UHGV virus genome: UHGV-0244087
DNA length: 24,829 nt
Reading direction: 5' to 3' (one strand)
Origin: a virus
Part shown: positions 17,318 through 23,556 of the stretch, one piece after another
Position numbering within the stretch: the first letter of the stretch is position 1
Layout: each line of letters starts with the position of its first letter
Notes under the pieces: model-generated
The model's database searches: none
What the model saw: the letters and a program-made list of their open reading frames with translations, nothing else
What the model was told of the DNA's origin: nothing
Translations under genes and position numbers: made by a program

Positions 17318-18277
17318 TTACTCCTTGCCCATTGCGTACAGCCCATTAACCAGAGCAAACTGTGGCACCCCGTCCGCGATGAAAGTCGCATTAACTCCGC
17401 AGGCTTCGCGGATAGCGGGTGCCACAATCTCTGCCCCGCCACCGACAACCATCACCCGCCCGTAACCCGAAAAACCCGCCAGCGCGCGGATCACGCGTTG
17501 TTTCAGTGTTTCTTCCTTTTCACGAATAACCGCCATCAGGCTGGCGTAATGCGCGTCATTGTGGATGTGCTGGCGCAGCCAGGCTTCATCATGGCGATGT
17601 TCGATAATGGTATTGGCGATGTGGTGACTGGTACGCATACCGTTAGTGGCCATCACCGACAGTACGGCATCGGCCATCAGGGAAACGCCTACGTGTGGAT
17701 CGCAAAACACCTGGCTGATACCTGCCAGTTGTCCCTGAACCTTTGCCACATCCAGCGTGGTTCCGCCTAAATCCACAATCAGCAGGGATTCAAACGGACT
17801 CATGTCAGCCAGTGCCTTAAAGCCAGCCGGAATGGATTCAGGCATAACCCGTACGTTACGGATAGTGAATGCTTCGCCGTTCTGGTACTCCACCGGGCGC
17901 ATAACGTTCGCTTTTTTGCGGTTGATGTTGGCTATGTCCGGCTGTGCGTTTGTGTCGAAATACTCGCTCAGTGGCAGGGTGACAACCACATCCACCTCCT
18001 GTGGCGTGATGCCTGATTTGACCAGCGCGTGATGAATGGCAATGACATTCACATCGCTGTACTGGTATTGCGTGTCAGTCGTCTGGACAAAGCGATCGCT
18101 GACCGGATCAAAACCATAGCGCACGCCATCAAGCATGTAGTTCGCGGGCTGCGTGCCACCGAACGGCGCAGACCATTCCGACTTGAAGCTGTTCGGGCTG
18201 ATGGCGTTGCGGCGTTCGCCGTTCTCAGTCCATGCCAGCTTGATGTTGGTGGAGCCGTCATCGATACAAATTTTCAT
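17318..18277 (-). CDS. parM: ParM (StbA)-like actin-family ATPase
   Basis: 319 aa; MKICIDDGSTNIKL..ISPNSFK..YSDVNVIAIHHAL..VMPESIPAG..LIVDLGGTTLD..VGGGAE tracks recalled R1 ParM along its length. Confidence 0.85.
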   Translation of the reverse strand: MKICIDDGSTNIKLAWTENGERRNAISPNSFKSEWSAPFGGTQPANYMLDGVRYGFDPVSDRFVQTTDTQYQYSDVNVIAIHHALVKSGITPQEVDVVVTLPLSEYFDTNAQPDIANINRKKANVMRPVEYQNGEAFTIRNVRVMPESIPAGFKALADMSPFESLLIVDLGGTTLDVAKVQGQLAGISQVFCDPHVGVSLMADAVLSVMATNGMRTSHHIANTIIEHRHDEAWLRQHIHNDAHYASLMAVIREKEETLKQRVIRALAGFSGYGRVMVVGGGAEIVAPAIREACGVNATFIADGVPQFALVNGLYAMGKE

Positions 18278-18307: not shown

Positions 18308-18418
18308 GTTTACGGGATTCTGAAATCCCGTTTTTGCCTGTTTTATGCGCGCTTCATATATCGCGGCGCGTTTTTTGCTCATTTACGGGATTTGTGAATC
18401 CCGTTTCTGTCTGTTTTT
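18308..18418. repeat. Two direct copies of a ~37-bp element, each with an 8-bp inverted repeat (acgggatt..aatcccgt) followed by a T-rich tail
   Basis: Copy 1 at 18308-18344 (gtttacgggattctgaaatcccgtttttgcctgtttt) and copy 2 at 18382-18418, 74 bp apart. They lie just upstream of parM, and copy 2 overlaps the last codons of A. Confidence 0.75.
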
Positions 18419-21176
18419 TGTTTCCACTGGTCAGGCCACCCCGCAGCAGGTCTGCTTTGCGGCGGGCGCGTTCAGTGGTTTCACTGATTCTCTGTGCGTG
18501 CTCTGCGTCGCGGATGGCGCGCAGCATGTCAGAAAGCACGGTAACGGGTGTTTTCATGGTGTTCTGGTCTTGCTGAAGTGTGGATGCCAGGCGTGCGGCG
18601 GCTTCGGGGTCTGATGCCCTCAGCTGTTCCAGATAGCTGGCGACCGGGTTATGGCGGATCTCCGTACTGCTTACGCCGTGGTTACGGCTCAGGCGCTGCC
18701 AGAGCTGCGTGATCCGGCTGTCCGGTCGGGTATCCGGTTTGCGTACAATTTCAAATCCCTGCGGTGCAATGATGCTGCCGTCAACGTACAGACTGCCGCC
18801 CCGTAACAGGTGCTGCATCTGCTGTTCACCGATATGCAGGCCGAGAGATTCGGCAGATTCCCGCCATTCTTTAGCGAGTAATTCGTGGTTATCAGGCAAA
18901 GGCCGCTGCTGTTTGCGGCTCTGTGTCCAGCTCTGCATTTCATCACTGCTGTTTTTTGCCTGTTTGTCACGAAGCGAACGCATCAGCGCCCGGCGTTCGT
19001 GCCGTTTCAGTGAGCGCATCCATTCGTTCACGTCAACGCCGTCAGGAAGCTGCGGCCACGGTGCTGGCCGTTCTTCCGGCTGTTCTGTCCCGTTGTTGTC
19101 CGTTTCCTGTACACGGGGACAGTTATTGCCACGAGTCCAAGGGGCGGCATGGCCGCCCTGAAGGTCAAAACCATTTTCGCGGGCGTTGTCTTCTGGTTCT
19201 GGTTTACGTCTTACCAACTTCCAGTTATCCGGATGCGTGCACACACGGGAGGATTCCCCGATGAGTGGTGACCAGATCCCGTAAATCTGTACGCTCTGTT
19301 CGCCGTAATCGTTCAGCTCATCTGCGAGGTCGTAGGCGGTGCGAATCAGGTAGTCCTTGCGTGGAACAAGCACGCCACCCTGTTTTTCAATGTAGGAGGC
19401 AAAACACCCGGCATCAGCGGCAGCGAGTACCGCATCCATTGCATCATCCTTCAGCCGTTGCGGGCCTTCCGGGTTGCGTGCCATCTGGCTGGCAAGGCGG
19501 CGGAGTTCACGCCATACCTGACGGGAGGGGATGCCAAAGAACTGGAACTGGCGGACCCGATGAAGACGCGCCCAGCCAATGGCGCGCTCCACGCTCTCGG
19601 CCATTGATTTTCCGGTTTCGTGGTCAACGCGTGGCTTGCCCGTTTTCGGGTCGATGCCATCTACGGCGCGGCTGTCCAGGTTTTTTCCGATGTAGGTCGC
19701 GATATAGCTGGTTGGTGTGCCTTTTGAGCCGTCGACATACTCCGCCTTAAAGCGCGGAGTAATATCATCGCCCAGTTCGTGACGATCTTCCTGAATGGCA
19801 ATATCGCGGGTGATGGCCACGATGCTGTCGATTTCTTCCGGATGAGCAAAGACCATCATATGCCAGTGCACGGTGCCGTCATGGTGAGGCTCCACCGTGC
19901 GGATGCCATACCAGCGCAGGCCGTCGCGGTTCAGTTTTTTGCGGACTGCCGCAAAAAACGTGTTAACCAGGTAATCGCTGGAGTCGCGCATGGTGGCCCC
20001 GTTCCATTTGGGGTTCGGATGACCGTTCTCCGTTGTTGCGTGGTATTTTGACGGGCAGGTGACGGTCAGAAACACCGCTCTGTCGCTACGGGCTTCGGCC
20101 AGAAGTTCCAGTCCCTTCATGGTGGCCATCATTTCTGCCTTACGGTGAACCGGGTTACTTACTCCCGCGTAATACACCGTCTCGAGATCAATCGTGAACC
20201 CGTCTTCATTTTCCAGCATGAAACTTTTCAGGAAATCGCGTGTTTTCTCGCGCTGTGCGCGAAACTCGCTTAACGCGTCCTGGCTCAGATAGGGCGATGT
20301 TTTTCTGGAAACCAGACAGGCGGCGCGGAGTTGTTCTTCTCTCCACTCGCAACGTAACAGCCACAGTTTGCGTTTCCACCATTCCGCACAGGTCAGGCGG
20401 AGGATTGCGCCCGGCAGCAGCTCCGTGTCCGGTTCGTTCCTCCGGTCTTTGTCTGTTGTCAGTGCGTCATAATGTGGAGGCATGGCGTGCAGGTGTAACG
20501 CCATGCGGGCCAGCATCTGATACGCCTTCAGCGTTACATCCATGGTCAGTTCGCCATCAGTCGCGCCAAAGCCATCGCAGAGTTTTTCGAAGGTGCTGCT
20601 GAACATCGCCGCCGTCATGGTGGCCAGCGTCTGTATCTGGTGTTTGTTGAGCTGCGGCAGGTAAAGCAAATCGTCCAGGCGTTCGCGTCCGGCAAGGGAG
20701 CGATAACCCGGTGTCAGCCAGCGTCTGTCAGTGCGATCCAGACGTTCGAATATTTTGCGCAGGGTTCCGCGTGCATAGCGTTCCGCCTGCCAGCTCTTTT
20801 TGCCTTTCCGGCGATCGGCTTCCTGTTTTTTGCGCAGGAAGGAGAGGTGGCGAATAAGCGGATCGCGCAGATAGGACGGCAGCAGGCGCAGCGAGGCCAT
20901 GGCTTCATCCACCGCGCCGCGTGCCCGTTTTCTGGCGTCTCCTGCCAGTGTGATGGTTTTGTCCTGTTTTTCCTGTGCGTCCAGGCTTTTATTAATCAGG
21001 TTGCCCAGCGGTGTGGCGGAGAACGCCGCATCAGCCATTTCCTGGCGGCGTTCGTTCTCTGCCCGGTAGGCATCCAGCCAGGAGGAAAGTGCGGATTCAG
21101 GTGCGGGGATCTCCGTTCCTTCACGTCCTACTGCGTGGCGCGGTTGTTGCCAGTCCCTGATGTACTCTGCCGTCAT
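18354..21176 (-). CDS. A: Replication initiation endonuclease A (rolling-circle), with a long C-terminal extension
   Basis: 940 aa, recognised as P2 gpA-like from overall sequence and position downstream of the early-region ORFs; ATG start. Recalled P2 gpA is 761 aa. Confidence 0.85.
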   Translation of the reverse strand: MTAEYIRDWQQPRHAVGREGTEIPAPESALSSWLDAYRAENERRQEMADAAFSATPLGNLINKSLDAQEKQDKTITLAGDARKRARGAVDEAMASLRLLPSYLRDPLIRHLSFLRKKQEADRRKGKKSWQAERYARGTLRKIFERLDRTDRRWLTPGYRSLAGRERLDDLLYLPQLNKHQIQTLATMTAAMFSSTFEKLCDGFGATDGELTMDVTLKAYQMLARMALHLHAMPPHYDALTTDKDRRNEPDTELLPGAILRLTCAEWWKRKLWLLRCEWREEQLRAACLVSRKTSPYLSQDALSEFRAQREKTRDFLKSFMLENEDGFTIDLETVYYAGVSNPVHRKAEMMATMKGLELLAEARSDRAVFLTVTCPSKYHATTENGHPNPKWNGATMRDSSDYLVNTFFAAVRKKLNRDGLRWYGIRTVEPHHDGTVHWHMMVFAHPEEIDSIVAITRDIAIQEDRHELGDDITPRFKAEYVDGSKGTPTSYIATYIGKNLDSRAVDGIDPKTGKPRVDHETGKSMAESVERAIGWARLHRVRQFQFFGIPSRQVWRELRRLASQMARNPEGPQRLKDDAMDAVLAAADAGCFASYIEKQGGVLVPRKDYLIRTAYDLADELNDYGEQSVQIYGIWSPLIGESSRVCTHPDNWKLVRRKPEPEDNARENGFDLQGGHAAPWTRGNNCPRVQETDNNGTEQPEERPAPWPQLPDGVDVNEWMRSLKRHERRALMRSLRDKQAKNSSDEMQSWTQSRKQQRPLPDNHELLAKEWRESAESLGLHIGEQQMQHLLRGGSLYVDGSIIAPQGFEIVRKPDTRPDSRITQLWQRLSRNHGVSSTEIRHNPVASYLEQLRASDPEAAARLASTLQQDQNTMKTPVTVLSDMLRAIRDAEHAQRISETTERARRKADLLRGGLTSGNKKQTETGFTNPVNEQKTRRDI

Positions 21177-21182
21177 AGTGAT

Positions 21183-21548
21183 TTACTTCGTCATGCCATT
21201 CAGGGTGTCGCGGCAGACTGTAGCCAGCCGCTGAATTTCCAGCACGGTGTCTTCTGTGTCGGCATGGCGATGTGTGATGCGGATGCTGTCGGCAATCACA
21301 TCGACGATTGCAGAGGATGGGCGCTGGTAAATGCCAATAACGGACGGGGTGCCACCTTCAATGCGGTAAAGCCTGTAATTTCCCTCGTGGCTGTCAATCA
21401 TGTAGCGACCATCAATAACAATCTTTCCGTCAGCGAGCTGCGGTACAGGCAGGGATTTCAGGTACATGTCATAACGATCACGCACGCGAGCGGCAAGATC
21501 ACGTTCTGTGTTGAGCAGGTATTCAAGAAAGTCGTTGGCGAGAATCAT
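21183..21548 (-). CDS. Hypothetical 121-aa early-region protein immediately upstream of A
   Basis: ORF ending 7 nt before the A start; no family recognised. Confidence 0.55.
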   Translation of the reverse strand: MILANDFLEYLLNTERDLAARVRDRYDMYLKSLPVPQLADGKIVIDGRYMIDSHEGNYRLYRIEGGTPSVIGIYQRPSSAIVDVIADSIRITHRHADTEDTVLEIQRLATVCRDTLNGMTK

Positions 21549-21620
21549 TGCGGCAATCCTCTTGTTACAGATGTGCGAAGGCCTCCCGCCGCAAGGTGCA
21601 GGAAAGGCCCGGAACAGGAA

Positions 21621-21851
21621 TTAATGGAGTTTGTTTTGCTGCTGGATGAGCTGTTGAAGCTCGCGCAGATCATCCGCCAGATAGCTGAAAACAGCGGCGG
21701 AATAGATGTTTGATAGTGCGTGGCTGCGCTCATGCAGCATATTGATGTGCATGATATGCGCGACGCGGAATGCGCGGAAAAGTCTGCGGTTGATTTCAGT
21801 CTGGATGTGACGACGCGCAGCGTATGCGCGCTGTTGTTTGCGGTTTGCCAT
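21621..21851 (-). CDS. Hypothetical 76-aa basic protein
   Basis: ORF with a weak GAGG ribosome-binding site; arginine-rich N-terminus; no family recognised. Confidence 0.4.
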   Translation of the reverse strand: MANRKQQRAYAARRHIQTEINRRLFRAFRVAHIMHINMLHERSHALSNIYSAAVFSYLADDLRELQQLIQQQNKLH

Positions 21852-22030
21852 GGGGTGGCCTCGTACGTAGTAAGTTTTAAAAACTCACCATCCAGAGGTT
21901 CCAAGCTCGGGGTGGTGAGACGTACAGGGTTGGAACTACCGGCTACGCACGAATCCGGCCCGACCGAAGTCGGCCCCATACGCCCCACCATAATTCTGAC
22001 GCGAAAAAGACGTGGCGATACGGTACGCAC

Positions 22031-22051
22031 AAAAAAACCGCTGGCGCGGTT
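22031..22051 (-). terminator. Intrinsic terminator (minus strand) inside the non-coding island
   Basis: Hairpin aaccgc-gcca-gcggtt followed on the minus strand by a run of seven T. Confidence 0.6.
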
Positions 22052-22187
22052 GTGCGCGTGCATAGTCAGCGGGGTTCCAATCCCGGCACCCGTTTTATGA
22101 GGTGCAGCGGAAATGTAACCTGACTGATTGCGGCATGGCAAGCGGTTTTTTTGTGAGAACGGCATACTAAAAAATCCTGATACTGCT

Positions 22188-22212
22188 CCGGCCAGCGGTT
22201 TTCACTGGCCGG
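22188..22212 (-). terminator. Hairpin immediately after the SPFH gene stop; weak terminator
   Basis: ccggccag-cggttttca-ctggccgg, 8-bp perfect stem; the T-run on the minus strand starts only about 11 nt later. Confidence 0.45.
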
Positions 22213-22218
22213 GTTTAA

Positions 22219-23049
22219 TTACTTCACCGGAACAAACGGAACAGCGGTGTTACTGGTCATGTATTGCGGTAGCGTGCCGTTCCATTTGTTAATCGCTTCC
22301 AGCTCCATAACGCCGGGATTCTGGCGCAGAGCTTCGCCGCGTAAACGAATGGCGTCGGCTTCAGCCTGGGCTTTTGTGCGAATGGCATCGGCTTGTCCGG
22401 CAGCTTCTGCGCGCAGCATGTTGGCTTCAGCTTCGCGTTGCTTGACTTCCTGTTCACGTTGCAGGGTTTTCTGGTTTGCCGTGACTTTGGCGTTAATGCT
22501 GTCGATAACGGTTGGCGGATATTCCGGTTTACCGACATAAGAGAGGCTCATGACCTGAATACCGATGGGGGTCATCTCTTCCTGAATATCTTTAAGTGCT
22601 GAATCCAGCAGTTCAGACTTACCACCGTCGATAAACTTATCGGTGGTCATTTTGCTGGCCAGTCGGTTGAGTGCATCGGCGATCTTCTGGCGCAGGTCAG
22701 TGTCGGTAATGTCGTCCACGCCTTTGCGGTAGGTCTGAAACACCGTGGTAACTTTGGATGGATCAACTTTGTAGGCCACGCCGATGTGATAGCCGATGGT
22801 TGTGCCGTCACTCATCTGAAAGCTGAACGGCTCATCGTAGGTCTTCATTTGTTTGAAGGTCGGGAAGATGTAAACCTCGGTATTCCAGCCAGTCCAGTAG
22901 CGACCAACGCCAACCACTTCGCCAACGCCTTTGTCGTCGCCCAGCTTGTTGACTTTGATGCCCATATTACCTGGCTCAACGCGATCGCAGCCAACCAGCA
23001 GGATGGCGGCAAAAAGCGGGAGAATCTGAAAGAGTCTGAATTTCTTCAT
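22219..23049 (-). CDS. SPFH/band-7 (prohibitin/HflC-like) lipoprotein
   Basis: 276 aa; N-terminus MKKFRLFQILPLFAAILLVGC (signal peptide plus lipobox); band-7 core followed by an Ala/Glu/Arg-rich coiled coil (EAEANMLRAEAAGQADAIRTKAQAEADAIR). Confidence 0.75.
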   Translation of the reverse strand: MKKFRLFQILPLFAAILLVGCDRVEPGNMGIKVNKLGDDKGVGEVVGVGRYWTGWNTEVYIFPTFKQMKTYDEPFSFQMSDGTTIGYHIGVAYKVDPSKVTTVFQTYRKGVDDITDTDLRQKIADALNRLASKMTTDKFIDGGKSELLDSALKDIQEEMTPIGIQVMSLSYVGKPEYPPTVIDSINAKVTANQKTLQREQEVKQREAEANMLRAEAAGQADAIRTKAQAEADAIRLRGEALRQNPGVMELEAINKWNGTLPQYMTSNTAVPFVPVK

Positions 23050-23249
23050 TGTTTAATTTCCTTGATGTACTTACTGAAAAGGCGAACAACGCCTGCCGGG
23101 TACAGCATGGCAATGAAAATGCCCAACAATACCAGGAAGGAGCTGTCTGATGAAATCATTCGGGGGAGTACCCCTACATACAGAATGAGAGAGACGAGGA
23201 CGCATACCAGCGCCCATGCATATGCACGAAACCATGTCTTGTTGTTCAT
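23046..23249 (-). CDS. Small membrane protein (67 aa, two predicted transmembrane helices) translationally coupled to the SPFH gene
   Basis: Internal ATG at 23247-23249 (MNNKTWFRAYAWALVCVLVSLILYV...); its stop overlaps the SPFH start (ATGA). Ribosome-binding site is weak. Confidence 0.55.
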   Translation of the reverse strand: MNNKTWFRAYAWALVCVLVSLILYVGVLPRMISSDSSFLVLLGIFIAMLYPAGVVRLFSKYIKEIKQ

Positions 23250-23259
23250 GTTGCGGCCC

Positions 23260-23556
23260 TTACTGGTTAAGGAAAAAATCGAAAACCTTGTCAATGCGTT
23301 GCAGCAGCTCTTGCTGTATTGCTTCCGGCGTTTCCGGTTCGCCTGGCGCCTCCAACGTCGCGCAGAAATCAGCGATTTCATGATGGAGTGTCAGGCGAAT
23401 GGCAGGGGCCGTGGTTCTGGCGTGCTCCAACTCATCCAGCAGTGCCAACACCACTGACGGTTGTAAGCTCACGCGAGATGGTAGTGATTCACGGGGGGGT
23501 ATTCTTTGCACGGCAGTCGCCAGTTCGCGTAGTTCCTGGTGGTTGATGATGCTCAT
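23260..23556 (-). CDS. Hypothetical 98-aa acidic protein
   Basis: ORF in the early-region gene string on the minus strand; no family recognised. Confidence 0.5.
   Translation of the reverse strand: MSIINHQELRELATAVQRIPPRESLPSRVSLQPSVVLALLDELEHARTTAPAIRLTLHHEIADFCATLEAPGEPETPEAIQQELLQRIDKVFDFFLNQ

What the first reader, a model, noticed from the sequence alone, without database searches (positions are those of the whole stretch)
21852..22218. Non-coding island with terminators on both strands; candidate small RNA locus
A 367-bp stretch has no credible ORF. A minus-strand terminator at 22031-22051 lies about 135 nt downstream of the SPFH-gene hairpin, bracketing a possible minus-strand small RNA of roughly 130 nt. 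A plus-strand T7 run at 22145-22151 could end an antisense transcript. Phage early regions often encode regulatory RNAs.
Basis: inference. Interest (0 to 1): 0.45.

Follow-up and report, generated by a model that had tools for sequence, protein, structure and literature searches.

The report
P4-type antisense RNA immunity cassette
The "non-coding island" is a known kind of phage RNA switch: two small RNAs (IsrK/seqA-like and C4/CI-like) that base-pair with the start of an anti-repressor gene, here sitting unannotated in a P2-like prophage just upstream of its replication genes.

Summary
It is a textbook one, not a new one. Rfam places two families above their curated thresholds, both on the minus strand: isrK (22105-22031, 67.4 bits) and C4 antisense RNA (21995-21908, 79.8 bits).

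The same tandem forms the immunity regions of P4 (seqA/CI), N15 (cA), a P1-like phage and lambdoid phages. All share the same geometry.

In 50 distinct relatives, the two C4 recognition sequences (a', b') covary with two copies of each target. One target pair lies in the leader (a1, b1). The other (a2, b2) covers the ribosome-binding site of the next gene, a homologue of the P4 epsilon derepression protein. Cognate pairing is 96-100%, against about 40% in register-shifted controls.

"No credible ORF" is wrong. A conserved 206-codon eta-like frame (Pfam Phage_ASH) reads through the whole island.

The plus-strand T7 run has no terminator hairpin. It is the A-tract just upstream of the minus-strand promoter.

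Verdict: a new member of a known kind, hosted by a P88-like (P2-family) prophage. RefSeq mislabels it as an "ash family" pseudogene. Modest interest.

The parts
22187..22212 (-). GC-rich hairpin just after the SPFH stop codon. It is part of the variable SPFH cargo cassette, not of the conserved RNA module.
   Evidence: -21.1 kcal/mol, z = -6.4. No adjacent U-run on the minus strand. Present only in the 28 of 85 related loci that carry the SPFH gene.
21545..22165 (-). eta-like ORF of 206 codons. It reads through the internal promoter, both RNA genes and the whole epsilon-like gene (in another frame). Its stop codon TGA overlaps the ATG of the next gene (ATGA).
   Evidence: ORF list. Pfam Phage_ASH 33.2 bits, cut-off 26, residues 17-110. 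The same Pfam model hits the P4 ORF over CI and the N15 cA ORF. ATG conserved in frame in several upstream contexts. Open for 204-205 codons in 57 of 61 distinct relatives. No stop sites, against 9 and 10 in the other frames. No codon periodicity in the RNA part (37/38/41 variable sites).
22145..22151 (-). It lies 4 nt upstream of the -35 hexamer, in the position of an UP element.
   Evidence: Sequence. No usable plus-strand hairpin. The A-run is kept in nearly all relatives: unchanged apart from a 1-nt deletion in L072, and its last five A's (22150-22146) are invariant in A1.
22112..22141 (-). Internal sigma-70-type promoter: -35 TTGCCA (22141-22136), 18-nt spacer, -10 TACATT (22117-22112). 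The inferred transcription start is about 22105.
   Evidence: Promoter scan. The -10 and almost all of the -35 are invariant in 50 relatives while the spacer varies. The same geometry (-35, 17-18 nt, -10, 6 nt, first base of isrK) is found in P4, N15, P1-like RCS47 and two lambdoid phages.
22031..22105 (-). IsrK/seqA-like leader RNA of 75 nt: hairpin 1 (22105-22086), hairpin 2 with a1 in its loop (22085-22070), b1, then the terminator.
   Evidence: Rfam RF01394 isrK, 67.4 bits (gathering score 50), model positions 1-77.
22074..22080 (-). a1 target UUGGAAC, complementary to a'.
   Evidence: 7 bp, 100% paired in 50 sequences; 4 pairs changed on both sides.
22057..22065 (-). b1 target CUAUGCACG, complementary to b'.
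   Evidence: 9 bp, 100% paired; 7 pairs changed on both sides.
22031..22051 (-).
   Evidence: Terminator scan. 3' end of the isrK model. Invariant in relatives.
21908..21995 (-). C4/CI-type antisense RNA: 17-bp basal stem (21990-21974 with 21929-21913), hairpin 1 (21973-21960), hairpin 2 (21959-21938).
   Evidence: Rfam RF01695, 79.8 bits (gathering score 45), full length. Fold -43 kcal/mol, z = -3.0. Basal stem 99.9% paired with 2 compensatory pairs; hairpin 1 has 2 compensatory pairs.
21943..21953 (-). b' recognition loop (UUCGUGCGUAG) of hairpin 2.
   Evidence: Pairs with b1 over 9 bp and with b2 over 11 bp including G-U pairs.
21930..21936 (-). a' recognition sequence (GUUCCAA) in the multiloop of C4.
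   Evidence: Pairs with a1 and a2, 7 bp each, 100% in relatives.
21898..21904 (-). a2 target UUGGAAC, in the loop of the hairpin that follows C4.
   Evidence: 100% paired; 4 pairs changed on both sides.
21879..21919 (-). Terminator-like hairpin (CUCACCA...UGGUGAG) plus U5. Its 5' arm is also the end of the C4 basal stem, so the two structures are mutually exclusive.
   Evidence: -16.2 kcal/mol. 99.7% paired in relatives but with no compensatory change. Chosen by RNAalifold. P4 has the equivalent hairpin.
21860..21870 (-). b2 target CUACGUACGAG. It overlaps three of the four bases of the Shine-Dalgarno sequence GAGG (21862-21859) of the epsilon-like gene; the ATG is at 21851.
   Evidence: (96% paired; 6 pairs changed on both sides).
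21621..21851 (-). Gene for a 76-aa epsilon-like derepression (anti-repressor) protein. It is the first gene controlled by the cassette.
   Evidence: Pfam Derepression PF25738, 27.4 bits against a cut-off of 27. 29% identity to P4 epsilon, E = 1e-7. Third-codon-position excess of variable sites in this frame (23/18/41). RefSeq calls it 'derepression protein'.
21183..21548 (-). 121-aa gene of unknown function. Its ATG overlaps the stop codon of the eta-like ORF.
   Evidence: PHROG 3237.
18354..21176 (-). P2-type replication initiator gpA (940 aa), downstream in the same operon.
   Evidence: Pfam Phage_GPA, 432.8 bits.

Best explanation
The island is the RNA-based immunity and anti-repressor control cassette of a P88-like (P2-family) prophage. 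It is homologous to the P4 PLE-seqA-CI-seqC region and to the immI-type regions of P1 and N15.

Shown by sequence and comparison: an internal promoter (22141-22112) lies inside an eta-like ORF. Behind it come a 75-nt IsrK/seqA-like leader that ends at an intrinsic terminator, and then an 88-nt C4/CI-type RNA. Two exposed C4 sequences, b' (hairpin loop) and a' (multiloop), are complementary to a1/b1 in the leader and to a2/b2 downstream. b2 overlaps the Shine-Dalgarno sequence of the epsilon-like gene.

Inferred by homology, lysogen state:
- The promoter fires in the lysogen.
- Most transcripts stop at 22031, giving the short leader RNA.
- Read-through transcripts are processed, by RNase P at the 5' end, into stable C4 RNA.
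- C4 pairs with a2/b2 on further read-through transcripts and blocks translation of the epsilon-like anti-repressor.
- That in turn allows termination, at the 21919-21879 hairpin or by Rho, before the 121-aa gene and gpA.
- The leader sites a1/b1 compete for or modulate C4.

Inferred by homology, lytic state: transcripts from the upstream early promoter carry the ATG at 22165. Ribosomes translating the eta-like frame run through the terminators and target sites, override the block, and couple into the 121-aa gene at the ATGA overlap.
For: Family membership. Both Rfam families match above their gathering scores, full length, on the same strand and in tandem. The same tandem is found in P4, N15, P88 and PV468777 and in P1-like RCS47, a Salmonella lambdoid phage, a Stx2a phage and mEp460.

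Shared geometry. In six phage families a1 lies about 25 nt and b1 about 40 nt into the leader. a2 lies 0-7 nt after C4, b2 35-39 nt after C4 and overlapping the SD, and the ATG at 54-57 nt.

Covariation in 50 distinct relatives:
- a1:a' and b1:b' are 100% paired, with 11 of 16 pairs changed on both sides.
- a':a2 is 100% and b':b2 96% paired, with 10 of 17 pairs changed on both sides.
- Register-shifted controls pair at about 40%.
- The covariation score is 0.276 against 0.085 in shuffles, with 0 of 500 shuffles as high.
- Cognate C4/target sets pair at 16.6 of 17 positions, non-cognate sets at 11.5 of 17.

Other support:
- The promoter hexamers are invariant while the spacer varies.
- Homology among relatives begins at about 22155, just upstream of the -35, whatever the upstream cargo.
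- The downstream gene is a P4 epsilon homologue.
- The eta-like frame has a conserved in-frame ATG, no stop sites against 9 and 10 in the other frames, compensating +1/-1 and +1/+2 indels, and an ATGA overlap with the next gene.

Literature. P4 CI RNA acts with seqA and seqC, and IsrK is a seqA homologue (PMC4825925). An IsrK-C4 immunity system has been described (PMC3632133). In P4, a constitutive promoter lies inside eta, and translation of eta from an upstream promoter prevents termination (PMC10111431).
Against: No expression, processing or phenotype data exist for this phage.

The promoter matches only 9 of 12 consensus positions, and such sites are not enriched over shuffles (1 found, 1.7 expected). 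Its support is positional conservation only.

The leader terminator and the post-C4 hairpin never vary or vary on one side only, so covariation is silent on them.

The role of a1/b1 is ambiguous. In P4, seqA is needed for immunity. In Gifsy-1, the short IsrK RNA activates anti-repressor translation.

The epsilon assignment rests on a borderline Pfam score (27.4 against 27) and 29% identity.

The eta-like frame shows no amino-acid-level constraint, so only its translation, not its product, may matter. Four of 61 relatives have it broken.
Confidence: 0.8

Rival explanations
1. Gifsy-1-type logic. The short IsrK-like RNA is the active trans regulator. It pairs with the C4-like part of read-through transcripts, opens an otherwise closed structure and switches on translation of the anti-repressor. 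The cassette would then be mainly an induction trigger, not a repressor.
For: The leader matches the isrK family. RNAalifold on the long transcript folds a1/b1 onto a'/b' in cis, which corresponds to the inactive 'structure A' of the IsrK paper. IsrK activates AnrP translation and Gifsy-1 induction. P88 was recovered after mitomycin C induction.
Against: Here b' is directly complementary to the SD of the epsilon-like gene, and that pairing covaries. This predicts repression by C4, as in P1 and P4. There is no orf45-type short coupled ORF; the frame from the C4 AUG runs on for 148 codons. The two models are not exclusive: the leader RNA may titrate C4.
Confidence: 0.12
2. The stretch is simply protein-coding: an 'Ash family' or Bro-network protein. 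The RNA-family matches would be incidental.
For: Pfam Phage_ASH and several PHROG 'transcriptional regulator' families match the 206-aa translation. RefSeq labels it 'ash family protein'. The frame is open and its ATG conserved.
Against: Variable sites show no codon periodicity in the RNA part (37/38/41), whereas the neighbouring epsilon-like gene does show it (23/18/41). Variation is concentrated in six short segments that covary as base pairs over 130-200 nt. The L053 group carries a +1/-1 indel pair that shifts about 190 nt of the 'protein' into another frame while keeping every RNA pair. The same Pfam model hits the ORFs annotated over the P4 cI and N15 cA loci, where the matching C4-type RNAs lie and where, for P4, the immunity factor is the CI RNA.
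Confidence: 0.03
3. One reading: an independent, uncharacterised small RNA of about 130 nt between the SPFH hairpin and the terminator, plus a plus-strand antisense transcript ending at the T7 run.
For: The terminator and the T7 run are present.
Against: Homology with relatives that lack the SPFH cassette starts at about 22155, so the hairpin is not part of the unit. A promoter-like site places the start near 22105. The T7 run has no terminator hairpin and there is no plus-strand promoter-like site.
Confidence: 0.03
4. A decaying, non-functional remnant of a P4-like immunity region captured by a P2-like prophage.
For: RefSeq marks the overlapping ORF as an incomplete pseudogene. A few relatives carry frame-breaking indels.
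Against: The module is present in 1247 of 5426 complete E. coli genomes. It keeps three-way compensatory covariation across 22 specificity types. That requires ongoing selection on the pairing.
Confidence: 0.02

Closest known systems
Satellite phage P4 immunity region (PLE promoter, seqA leader, CI RNA, seqC, inside the eta/kil genes, followed by epsilon)
   Same: - P4 gives the same two Rfam hits in the same order: isrK at 8692-8615 and C4 at 8507-8420.
- It has the same promoter geometry and the same leader terminator.
- a2 sits in the loop of a post-CI hairpin that shares an arm with the CI stem.
- b2 lies over the SD.
- A long ORF reads through everything and matches Pfam Phage_ASH.
- An epsilon derepression gene lies downstream.
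   Different: - The host element here is a full P2-like phage with gpA, not a satellite with alpha primase.
- The leader-to-C4 spacer is 35 nt, against 107 nt in P4.
- The first regulated ORF is the epsilon homologue itself, in a different frame from the eta-like ORF. In P4 it is kil, nested in frame within eta, with epsilon following later.
- Sequence identity is too low for BLAST-level alignment of the RNA genes.
P1/P7 immI (c4 antisense RNA, icd, ant)
   Same: P1-like RCS47 shows isrK plus C4 upstream of ant. Its a'/b' pair with upstream and downstream targets, and b2 lies over the SD. Its a' allele (UAGUCUCAACC) is identical to one allele of the P88-like family.
   Different: The P1-like phage RCS47 regulates an icd-like ORF (MATVPTP...) and the large Ant protein. 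Its b specificities differ. P1 is a phage-plasmid (known from the literature), not an integrated P2-like prophage.
N15 secondary immunity (cA RNA controlling the anti-repressor operon)
   Same: The same two Rfam hits lie under the annotated 'cA secondary immunity repressor'. BLAST-detectable similarity to the window exists. Its a' allele (GUUGAGAA) is shared with one P88-like allele.
   Different: The downstream genes and b alleles differ. N15 is a linear plasmid-prophage.
Gifsy-1 IsrK / STnc1160 (orf45) / AnrP locus of Salmonella
   Same: An IsrK leader with a terminator that allows read-through, a downstream C4-like processed RNA, then an anti-repressor. Leader and C4-like part pair in cis. 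Lambdoid relatives give both Rfam hits.
   Different: In Gifsy-1, IsrK was shown to act as an activator through a short translated orf45 coupled to anrP. Here there is no short ORF, and the anti-repressor is epsilon-type rather than AnrP/Rha-type.

Membership tests
IsrK-C4 (P4 CI / P1 c4 / N15 cA) antisense immunity system | C4/CI-type RNA: long basal stem enclosing two hairpins (Rfam RF01695) | tested here: met
   79.8 bits against a gathering score of 45, model positions 1-87. Stems are kept with compensatory changes in relatives.
IsrK-C4 (P4 CI / P1 c4 / N15 cA) antisense immunity system | Upstream leader of isrK/seqA type ending in an intrinsic terminator (Rfam RF01394), same strand, directly upstream of C4 | tested here: met
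   67.4 bits against a gathering score of 50, model positions 1-77, 35 nt upstream of C4. The terminator was also found by an independent scan.
IsrK-C4 (P4 CI / P1 c4 / N15 cA) antisense immunity system | Two exposed C4 sequences complementary to one target pair upstream and one downstream | tested here: met
   a1:a' 7 bp, b1:b' 9 bp, a':a2 7 bp, b':b2 10-11 bp. Pairing is 96-100% in 50 relatives with 21 pairs changed on both sides; slid controls pair at about 40%.
IsrK-C4 (P4 CI / P1 c4 / N15 cA) antisense immunity system | The downstream target overlaps the ribosome-binding site of the first regulated ORF | tested here: met
   b2 (21870-21860) covers GAG of the SD GAGG (21862-21859), 7 nt before the ATG at 21851.
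IsrK-C4 (P4 CI / P1 c4 / N15 cA) antisense immunity system | Constitutive promoter immediately upstream of the leader | tested here: inconclusive
   A promoter-like site (9 of 12 consensus positions) lies at the position conserved in six phage families, and its hexamers are invariant. Its activity was not measured.
IsrK-C4 (P4 CI / P1 c4 / N15 cA) antisense immunity system | Mature RNA produced by processing (RNase P at the 5' end) and conferring immunity or repression | not testable with these tools
   Needs RNA end mapping and genetics.
P4 eta-type read-through ORF (Pfam Phage_ASH, PF10554) | Long ORF that starts upstream of the internal promoter and reads through leader, C4 and targets | tested here: met
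   33.2 bits against a cut-off of 26. Conserved in-frame ATG. Open in 57 of 61 relatives. No stop sites, against 9 and 10 in the other frames. The P4 and N15 counterparts hit the same model.
P4 eta-type read-through ORF (Pfam Phage_ASH, PF10554) | A nested in-frame kil/icd-type gene that starts after seqC | tested here: not met
   The ATG after b2 is in a different frame and encodes an epsilon homologue. P4, P1-like and lambdoid phages start MAT..P..(H/Q)PE(F/I) at that position.
P4 epsilon derepression protein family (Pfam PF25738) | Sequence membership | tested here: met
   27.4 bits against a cut-off of 27, which is borderline. BLASTP against P4 epsilon gives 29% identity over 66 residues, E = 1e-7. 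P4 epsilon itself scores 170 bits.
P4 epsilon derepression protein family (Pfam PF25738) | Binds and inactivates a P2-type C repressor | not testable with these tools
   Needs a protein interaction assay or a derepression assay.
   Only a 4-bp UUGC/GCAA stem, 4 nt away from the T-run. The scan did not call it.

The most novel reading that the evidence does not exclude
In P88-like phages the cassette would be an RNA-gated induction switch. These phages have a P2-type C/Cox switch, and P2 is known from the literature not to be SOS-inducible. Release of the epsilon-type anti-repressor from C4 control would inactivate the phage's own C repressor, or that of a co-resident P2-like phage.

The recognition sequences are hypervariable and reassort freely: 6 a alleles and 14 b alleles give 22 combinations among 50 sequences. 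Some a alleles are shared with N15 and a P1-like phage. They would then form an RNA 'immunity barcode' under diversifying selection. That barcode would set which co-resident prophages, satellites and phage-plasmids can silence or trigger each other.
Probability: 0.2. Interest if true: 0.55.

Novelty: new member of a known kind. Interest (0 to 1): 0.3.

Why it matters
Practical value: about a quarter of complete E. coli genomes (1247 of 5426) carry this module. RefSeq labels it as an "ash family protein" pseudogene, with no RNA feature. Correct annotation would turn a supposed pseudogene into a two-RNA regulatory cassette.

Biological value: a P4-style RNA immunity and epsilon module sits inside helper-type P2-like phages, directly upstream of their replication initiator. 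The many naturally covarying specificity alleles are a ready-made set of orthogonal RNA-RNA recognition pairs. They also offer a handle on cross-talk between prophages and their satellites.

None of this changes the known mechanism of the family.

Tried and rejected
- tRNA/tmRNA scan of the window: none found.
- Weak Rfam matches in the island (Ms_AS-5, JUMPstart, Hrs13): E-values of 2-6, far below their gathering scores, dismissed as chance. The sub-threshold c4-a1b1 hit (19 bits) merely overlaps isrK.
- LexA-box search for an SOS-controlled promoter: 9 matches against 8.3 expected, none near the promoter. No support for SOS control.
- Homology of the 121-aa protein to P4 ORF151: none. NCBIfam gave nothing useful for the small proteins.
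- Direct BLASTP of the 206-aa ORF against the P4 cI ORF: only E = 0.05. The link was made through Pfam instead.
- Post-C4 hairpin as a proven terminator: conserved and shared with P4, but without compensatory changes, so it is left as inference.
- The genome-contig scan returned only 3 loci. The viral-contig scan supplied the comparative set.
- The original P4 paper (PMC176756) is not held. The P4 mechanism is cited through PMC4825925, PMC3632133 and PMC10111431.
- No paper in the library was found to describe this cassette in P88-like or other P2-like phages.
Full report
**Observation.**
The window around 21852-22218 lies between a minus-strand SPFH/Band-7 gene (22219-23049) and a minus-strand 76-codon gene (21621-21851). 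Downstream come a 121-codon gene and a 940-aa P2-type replication initiator gpA.

The hairpin after the SPFH stop codon is strong (-21.1 kcal/mol, z = -6.4) but has no adjacent U-run on the minus strand.

The plus-strand T7 run at 22145-22151 is preceded only by a 4-bp stem. It was not called as a terminator, and no plus-strand promoter-like site exists in 20800-23300.

"No credible ORF" does not hold, as shown below.

**What is there.**
A scan of the whole window against Rfam gave exactly two matches above curated thresholds. Both are inside the island and both on the minus strand:
- isrK (RF01394), 22105-22031, 67.4 bits against a gathering score of 50.
- C4 antisense RNA (RF01695), 21995-21908, 79.8 bits against a gathering score of 45.

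Seven nucleotides upstream of its first base lies a promoter-like site: TTGCCA, 18 nt, TACATT (22141-22112).

Read 5' to 3' on the minus strand, the anatomy is:
- promoter;
- 75-nt leader, with UUGGAAC (a1, 22080-22074) in a hairpin loop and CUAUGCACG (b1, 22065-22057);
- terminator;
- 35-nt spacer;
- C4, with a 17-bp basal stem, a UUCG-capped hairpin, and a second hairpin whose loop carries CGUGCGUAG (b'), followed by single-stranded GUUCCAA (a');
- a second UUGGAAC (a2, 21904-21898) in the loop of a hairpin that is followed by U5;
- CUACGUACGAG (b2, 21870-21860), overlapping the Shine-Dalgarno GAGG;
- the ATG at 21851.

**Source and relatives.**
The DNA is 90-94% identical to Escherichia phage P88 and other Xuanwuvirus (P2-family, Peduoviridae) phages. 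It is 100% identical to a prophage in E. coli DA33135.

The module occurs in 1247 of 5426 complete E. coli genomes. RefSeq annotates it as an incomplete "ash family protein" pseudogene plus a "derepression protein", with no RNA feature.

The 76-aa protein was used to fetch 83 related loci. Homology to the window starts at about 22155, just upstream of the -35, in every locus. The upstream cargo varies: the SPFH gene and its hairpin are present in only 28 of 85 loci.

**Covariation.**
Among 55 distinct versions of the region, variation is concentrated in six short segments: a1, b1, b', a', a2 and b2. On an alignment of 50 distinct sequences (A1) the pairings score as follows:

| Pairing | Length | Cells paired | Pairs changed on both sides |
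|---|---|---|---|
| a1:a' | 7 bp | 100% | 4 |
| b1:b' | 9 bp | 100% | 7 |
| a':a2 | 7 bp | 100% | 4 |
| b':b2 | 10 bp | 96% | 6 |

Sliding the partner by 1-3 columns drops pairing to about 40%. The covariation score is 0.276 against 0.085 in shuffles, with 0 of 500 shuffles as high.

There are 6 a alleles and 14 b alleles in 22 combinations. Six b alleles occur with more than one a allele, so the two determinants reassort. Cognate C4/target sets pair at 16.6 of 17 positions, non-cognate sets at 11.5.

The C4 basal stem and first hairpin also carry compensatory changes. The leader terminator and the promoter hexamers are invariant.

This is direct comparative evidence that the RNA-RNA contacts are under selection. 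It also shows that the family has diversified into many recognition specificities.

**The reading frame.**
A 206-codon ORF (22165-21545) spans the island, and its residues 17-110 match Pfam Phage_ASH. I first treated this as an artefact of translating conserved RNA genes, and the evidence for that reading is real:
- Variable sites show no codon periodicity in the RNA part (37/38/41), whereas the epsilon-like gene shows the expected third-position excess in its own frame (23/18/41).
- One group of relatives carries a +1/-1 indel pair that re-frames about 190 nt.

But the frame itself is clearly maintained:
- Its ATG is present and in frame in at least four unrelated upstream contexts, 6 or 9 nt before CAAAAAAACC.
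- It stays open for 204-205 codons in 57 of 61 distinct relatives.
- In 51 indel-free relatives it has no stop site in the RNA part, while the other two frames have 9 and 10 stop sites, 18 of them polymorphic.
- It is also stop-free across the epsilon overlap.
- Its stop codon overlaps the ATG of the 121-aa gene (ATGA).

P4 has the same arrangement. A long ORF (8812-8168) reads through PLE, the leader, CI and seqC. The Pfam Phage_ASH model hits the P4 "cI gene product" ORF and the N15 "cA" ORF, whereas P4 epsilon hits a different family, PF25738.

According to PMC10111431, this P4 gene is eta. A constitutive promoter inside it gives the quickly terminated transcript from which CI is processed. 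Full-length eta is translated only from an upstream promoter, and that translation prevents termination.

The window's ORF is therefore best read as an eta-like read-through frame in which the act of translation, not the peptide, is selected.

**Cross-family comparison.**
The isrK plus C4 tandem was found in every reference I scanned: P4, N15, P88 and PV468777, and P1-like RCS47 (upstream of ant), a Salmonella lambdoid phage, a Stx2a phage and mEp460.

All share one geometry. The promoter is -35, 17-18 nt, -10, then 6 nt to the first base of the leader. a1 lies about 25 nt and b1 about 40 nt into the leader. A terminator follows, then C4. a2 lies 0-7 nt after C4, b2 35-39 nt after C4 over the SD, and the ATG at 54-57 nt.

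In the lambdoid phages the cassette sits between cII and the replication gene O, inside an over-long "antirepressor" CDS. Here it sits between early genes and gpA.

The one architectural difference is the first regulated ORF:
- In P4, P1-like and lambdoid phages it is a kil/icd-type ORF (MAT..P..(H/Q)PE(F/I)), in frame with the long ORF in P4.
- Here it is a homologue of P4 epsilon, in a different frame. The match is 29% identity with E = 1e-7, and the Pfam score is 27.4 against a cut-off of 27.

**Mechanism.**
Shown here: the RNA families, the promoter-like site at the conserved position, the complementarities and their covariation, occlusion of the SD by b', and the maintained eta-like frame.

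Inferred from P4, P1 and Gifsy-1:
- In the lysogen, the internal promoter gives the short leader RNA and, by read-through and processing, C4 RNA.
- C4 pairs with a2/b2 and blocks translation of the epsilon-like anti-repressor. This allows termination before gpA.
- Transcripts from the upstream early promoter are translated through the eta-like frame and escape the block.

The function of a1/b1 is unresolved. They may be a co-target needed for termination, as seqA is in P4. Or they may be a decoy or activator, as IsrK is in Gifsy-1. RNAalifold and single-sequence folding both pair a1/b1 with a'/b' in cis on the long transcript.

**Novelty.**
The system as a class is well known, and both RNAs are curated Rfam families. 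Barquist et al. already speak of an "IsrK-C4 immunity system" in P4, P1, P7, N15 and some lambdoid prophages.

I found no paper in the library that describes it in P88-like or other P2-like phages, and public records do not annotate it as RNA.

I therefore file it as a new member of a known kind, with one small variant feature: an epsilon-type gene as the direct target. Interest is modest.

Noticed in passing
window 21836-22117 (-); L086 8168-8584 (-); L087 3341-3643 (-): Pfam PF10554 (Phage_ASH) matches the ORFs that overlie the CI/C4 RNA genes of P4, N15 and this window, not P4 epsilon. P4 epsilon matches PF25738 at 170 bits. A large survey of P4-like satellites (PMC8628076) used PF10554 as its epsilon marker, so it was probably detecting the eta/CI immunity locus instead.
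   Followed up: partly
L088 4098-4265 (E. coli DA33135, identical to window ~22053-21886): RefSeq/PGAP annotates the C4 region as an incomplete 'ash family protein' pseudogene and gives no ncRNA feature. P88's GenBank record places a plus-strand hypothetical CDS over it. The module is present in 1247 of 5426 complete E. coli genomes.
   Followed up: partly
window 22155-23049 and the equivalent positions in L002-L085: The slot just upstream of the cassette is a variable cargo site. The SPFH lipoprotein gene with its hairpin occupies it in 28 of 85 loci; other loci have unrelated genes. All loci rejoin at an in-frame ATG 6 or 9 nt before CAAAAAAACC.
   Followed up: partly
window 21930-21936; L087 (N15); L089 (RCS47): Some a' alleles of the P88-like family are identical to those of unrelated elements: GUUGAGAA as in N15 and UAGUCUCAACC as in P1-like RCS47. 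The b' alleles differ. The Stx2a phage has the complement arrangement: its a' equals the a1 of one P88-like allele. This hints at a limited a repertoire or at possible cross-talk.
   Followed up: no
L026 ~ positions 81-408 (b' loop): One relative has a 17-nt insertion in the b' loop that looks like two different b' alleles in tandem (UUCUUUGCUCU-CCGG-UG-UUCUUGUGUAG). It may be a recombination intermediate between specificity types. The insertion also breaks the eta-like frame.
   Followed up: no
window 17318-18277 (-) and the neighbouring ORFs downstream of gpA: By position and length, the ORFs downstream of gpA correspond to P88's annotated ParM-type plasmid segregation protein and partition protein. 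These are unusual for a P2-like integrated prophage.
   Followed up: no
window 21545-21851 (-): The eta-like frame stays stop-free across the entire 76-codon epsilon-like gene, in a second frame, and ends in an ATGA overlap with the next gene. The third frame has 10 stop sites. This is apparent dual use of the same DNA, with amino-acid-level constraint seen only in the epsilon frame.
   Followed up: partly
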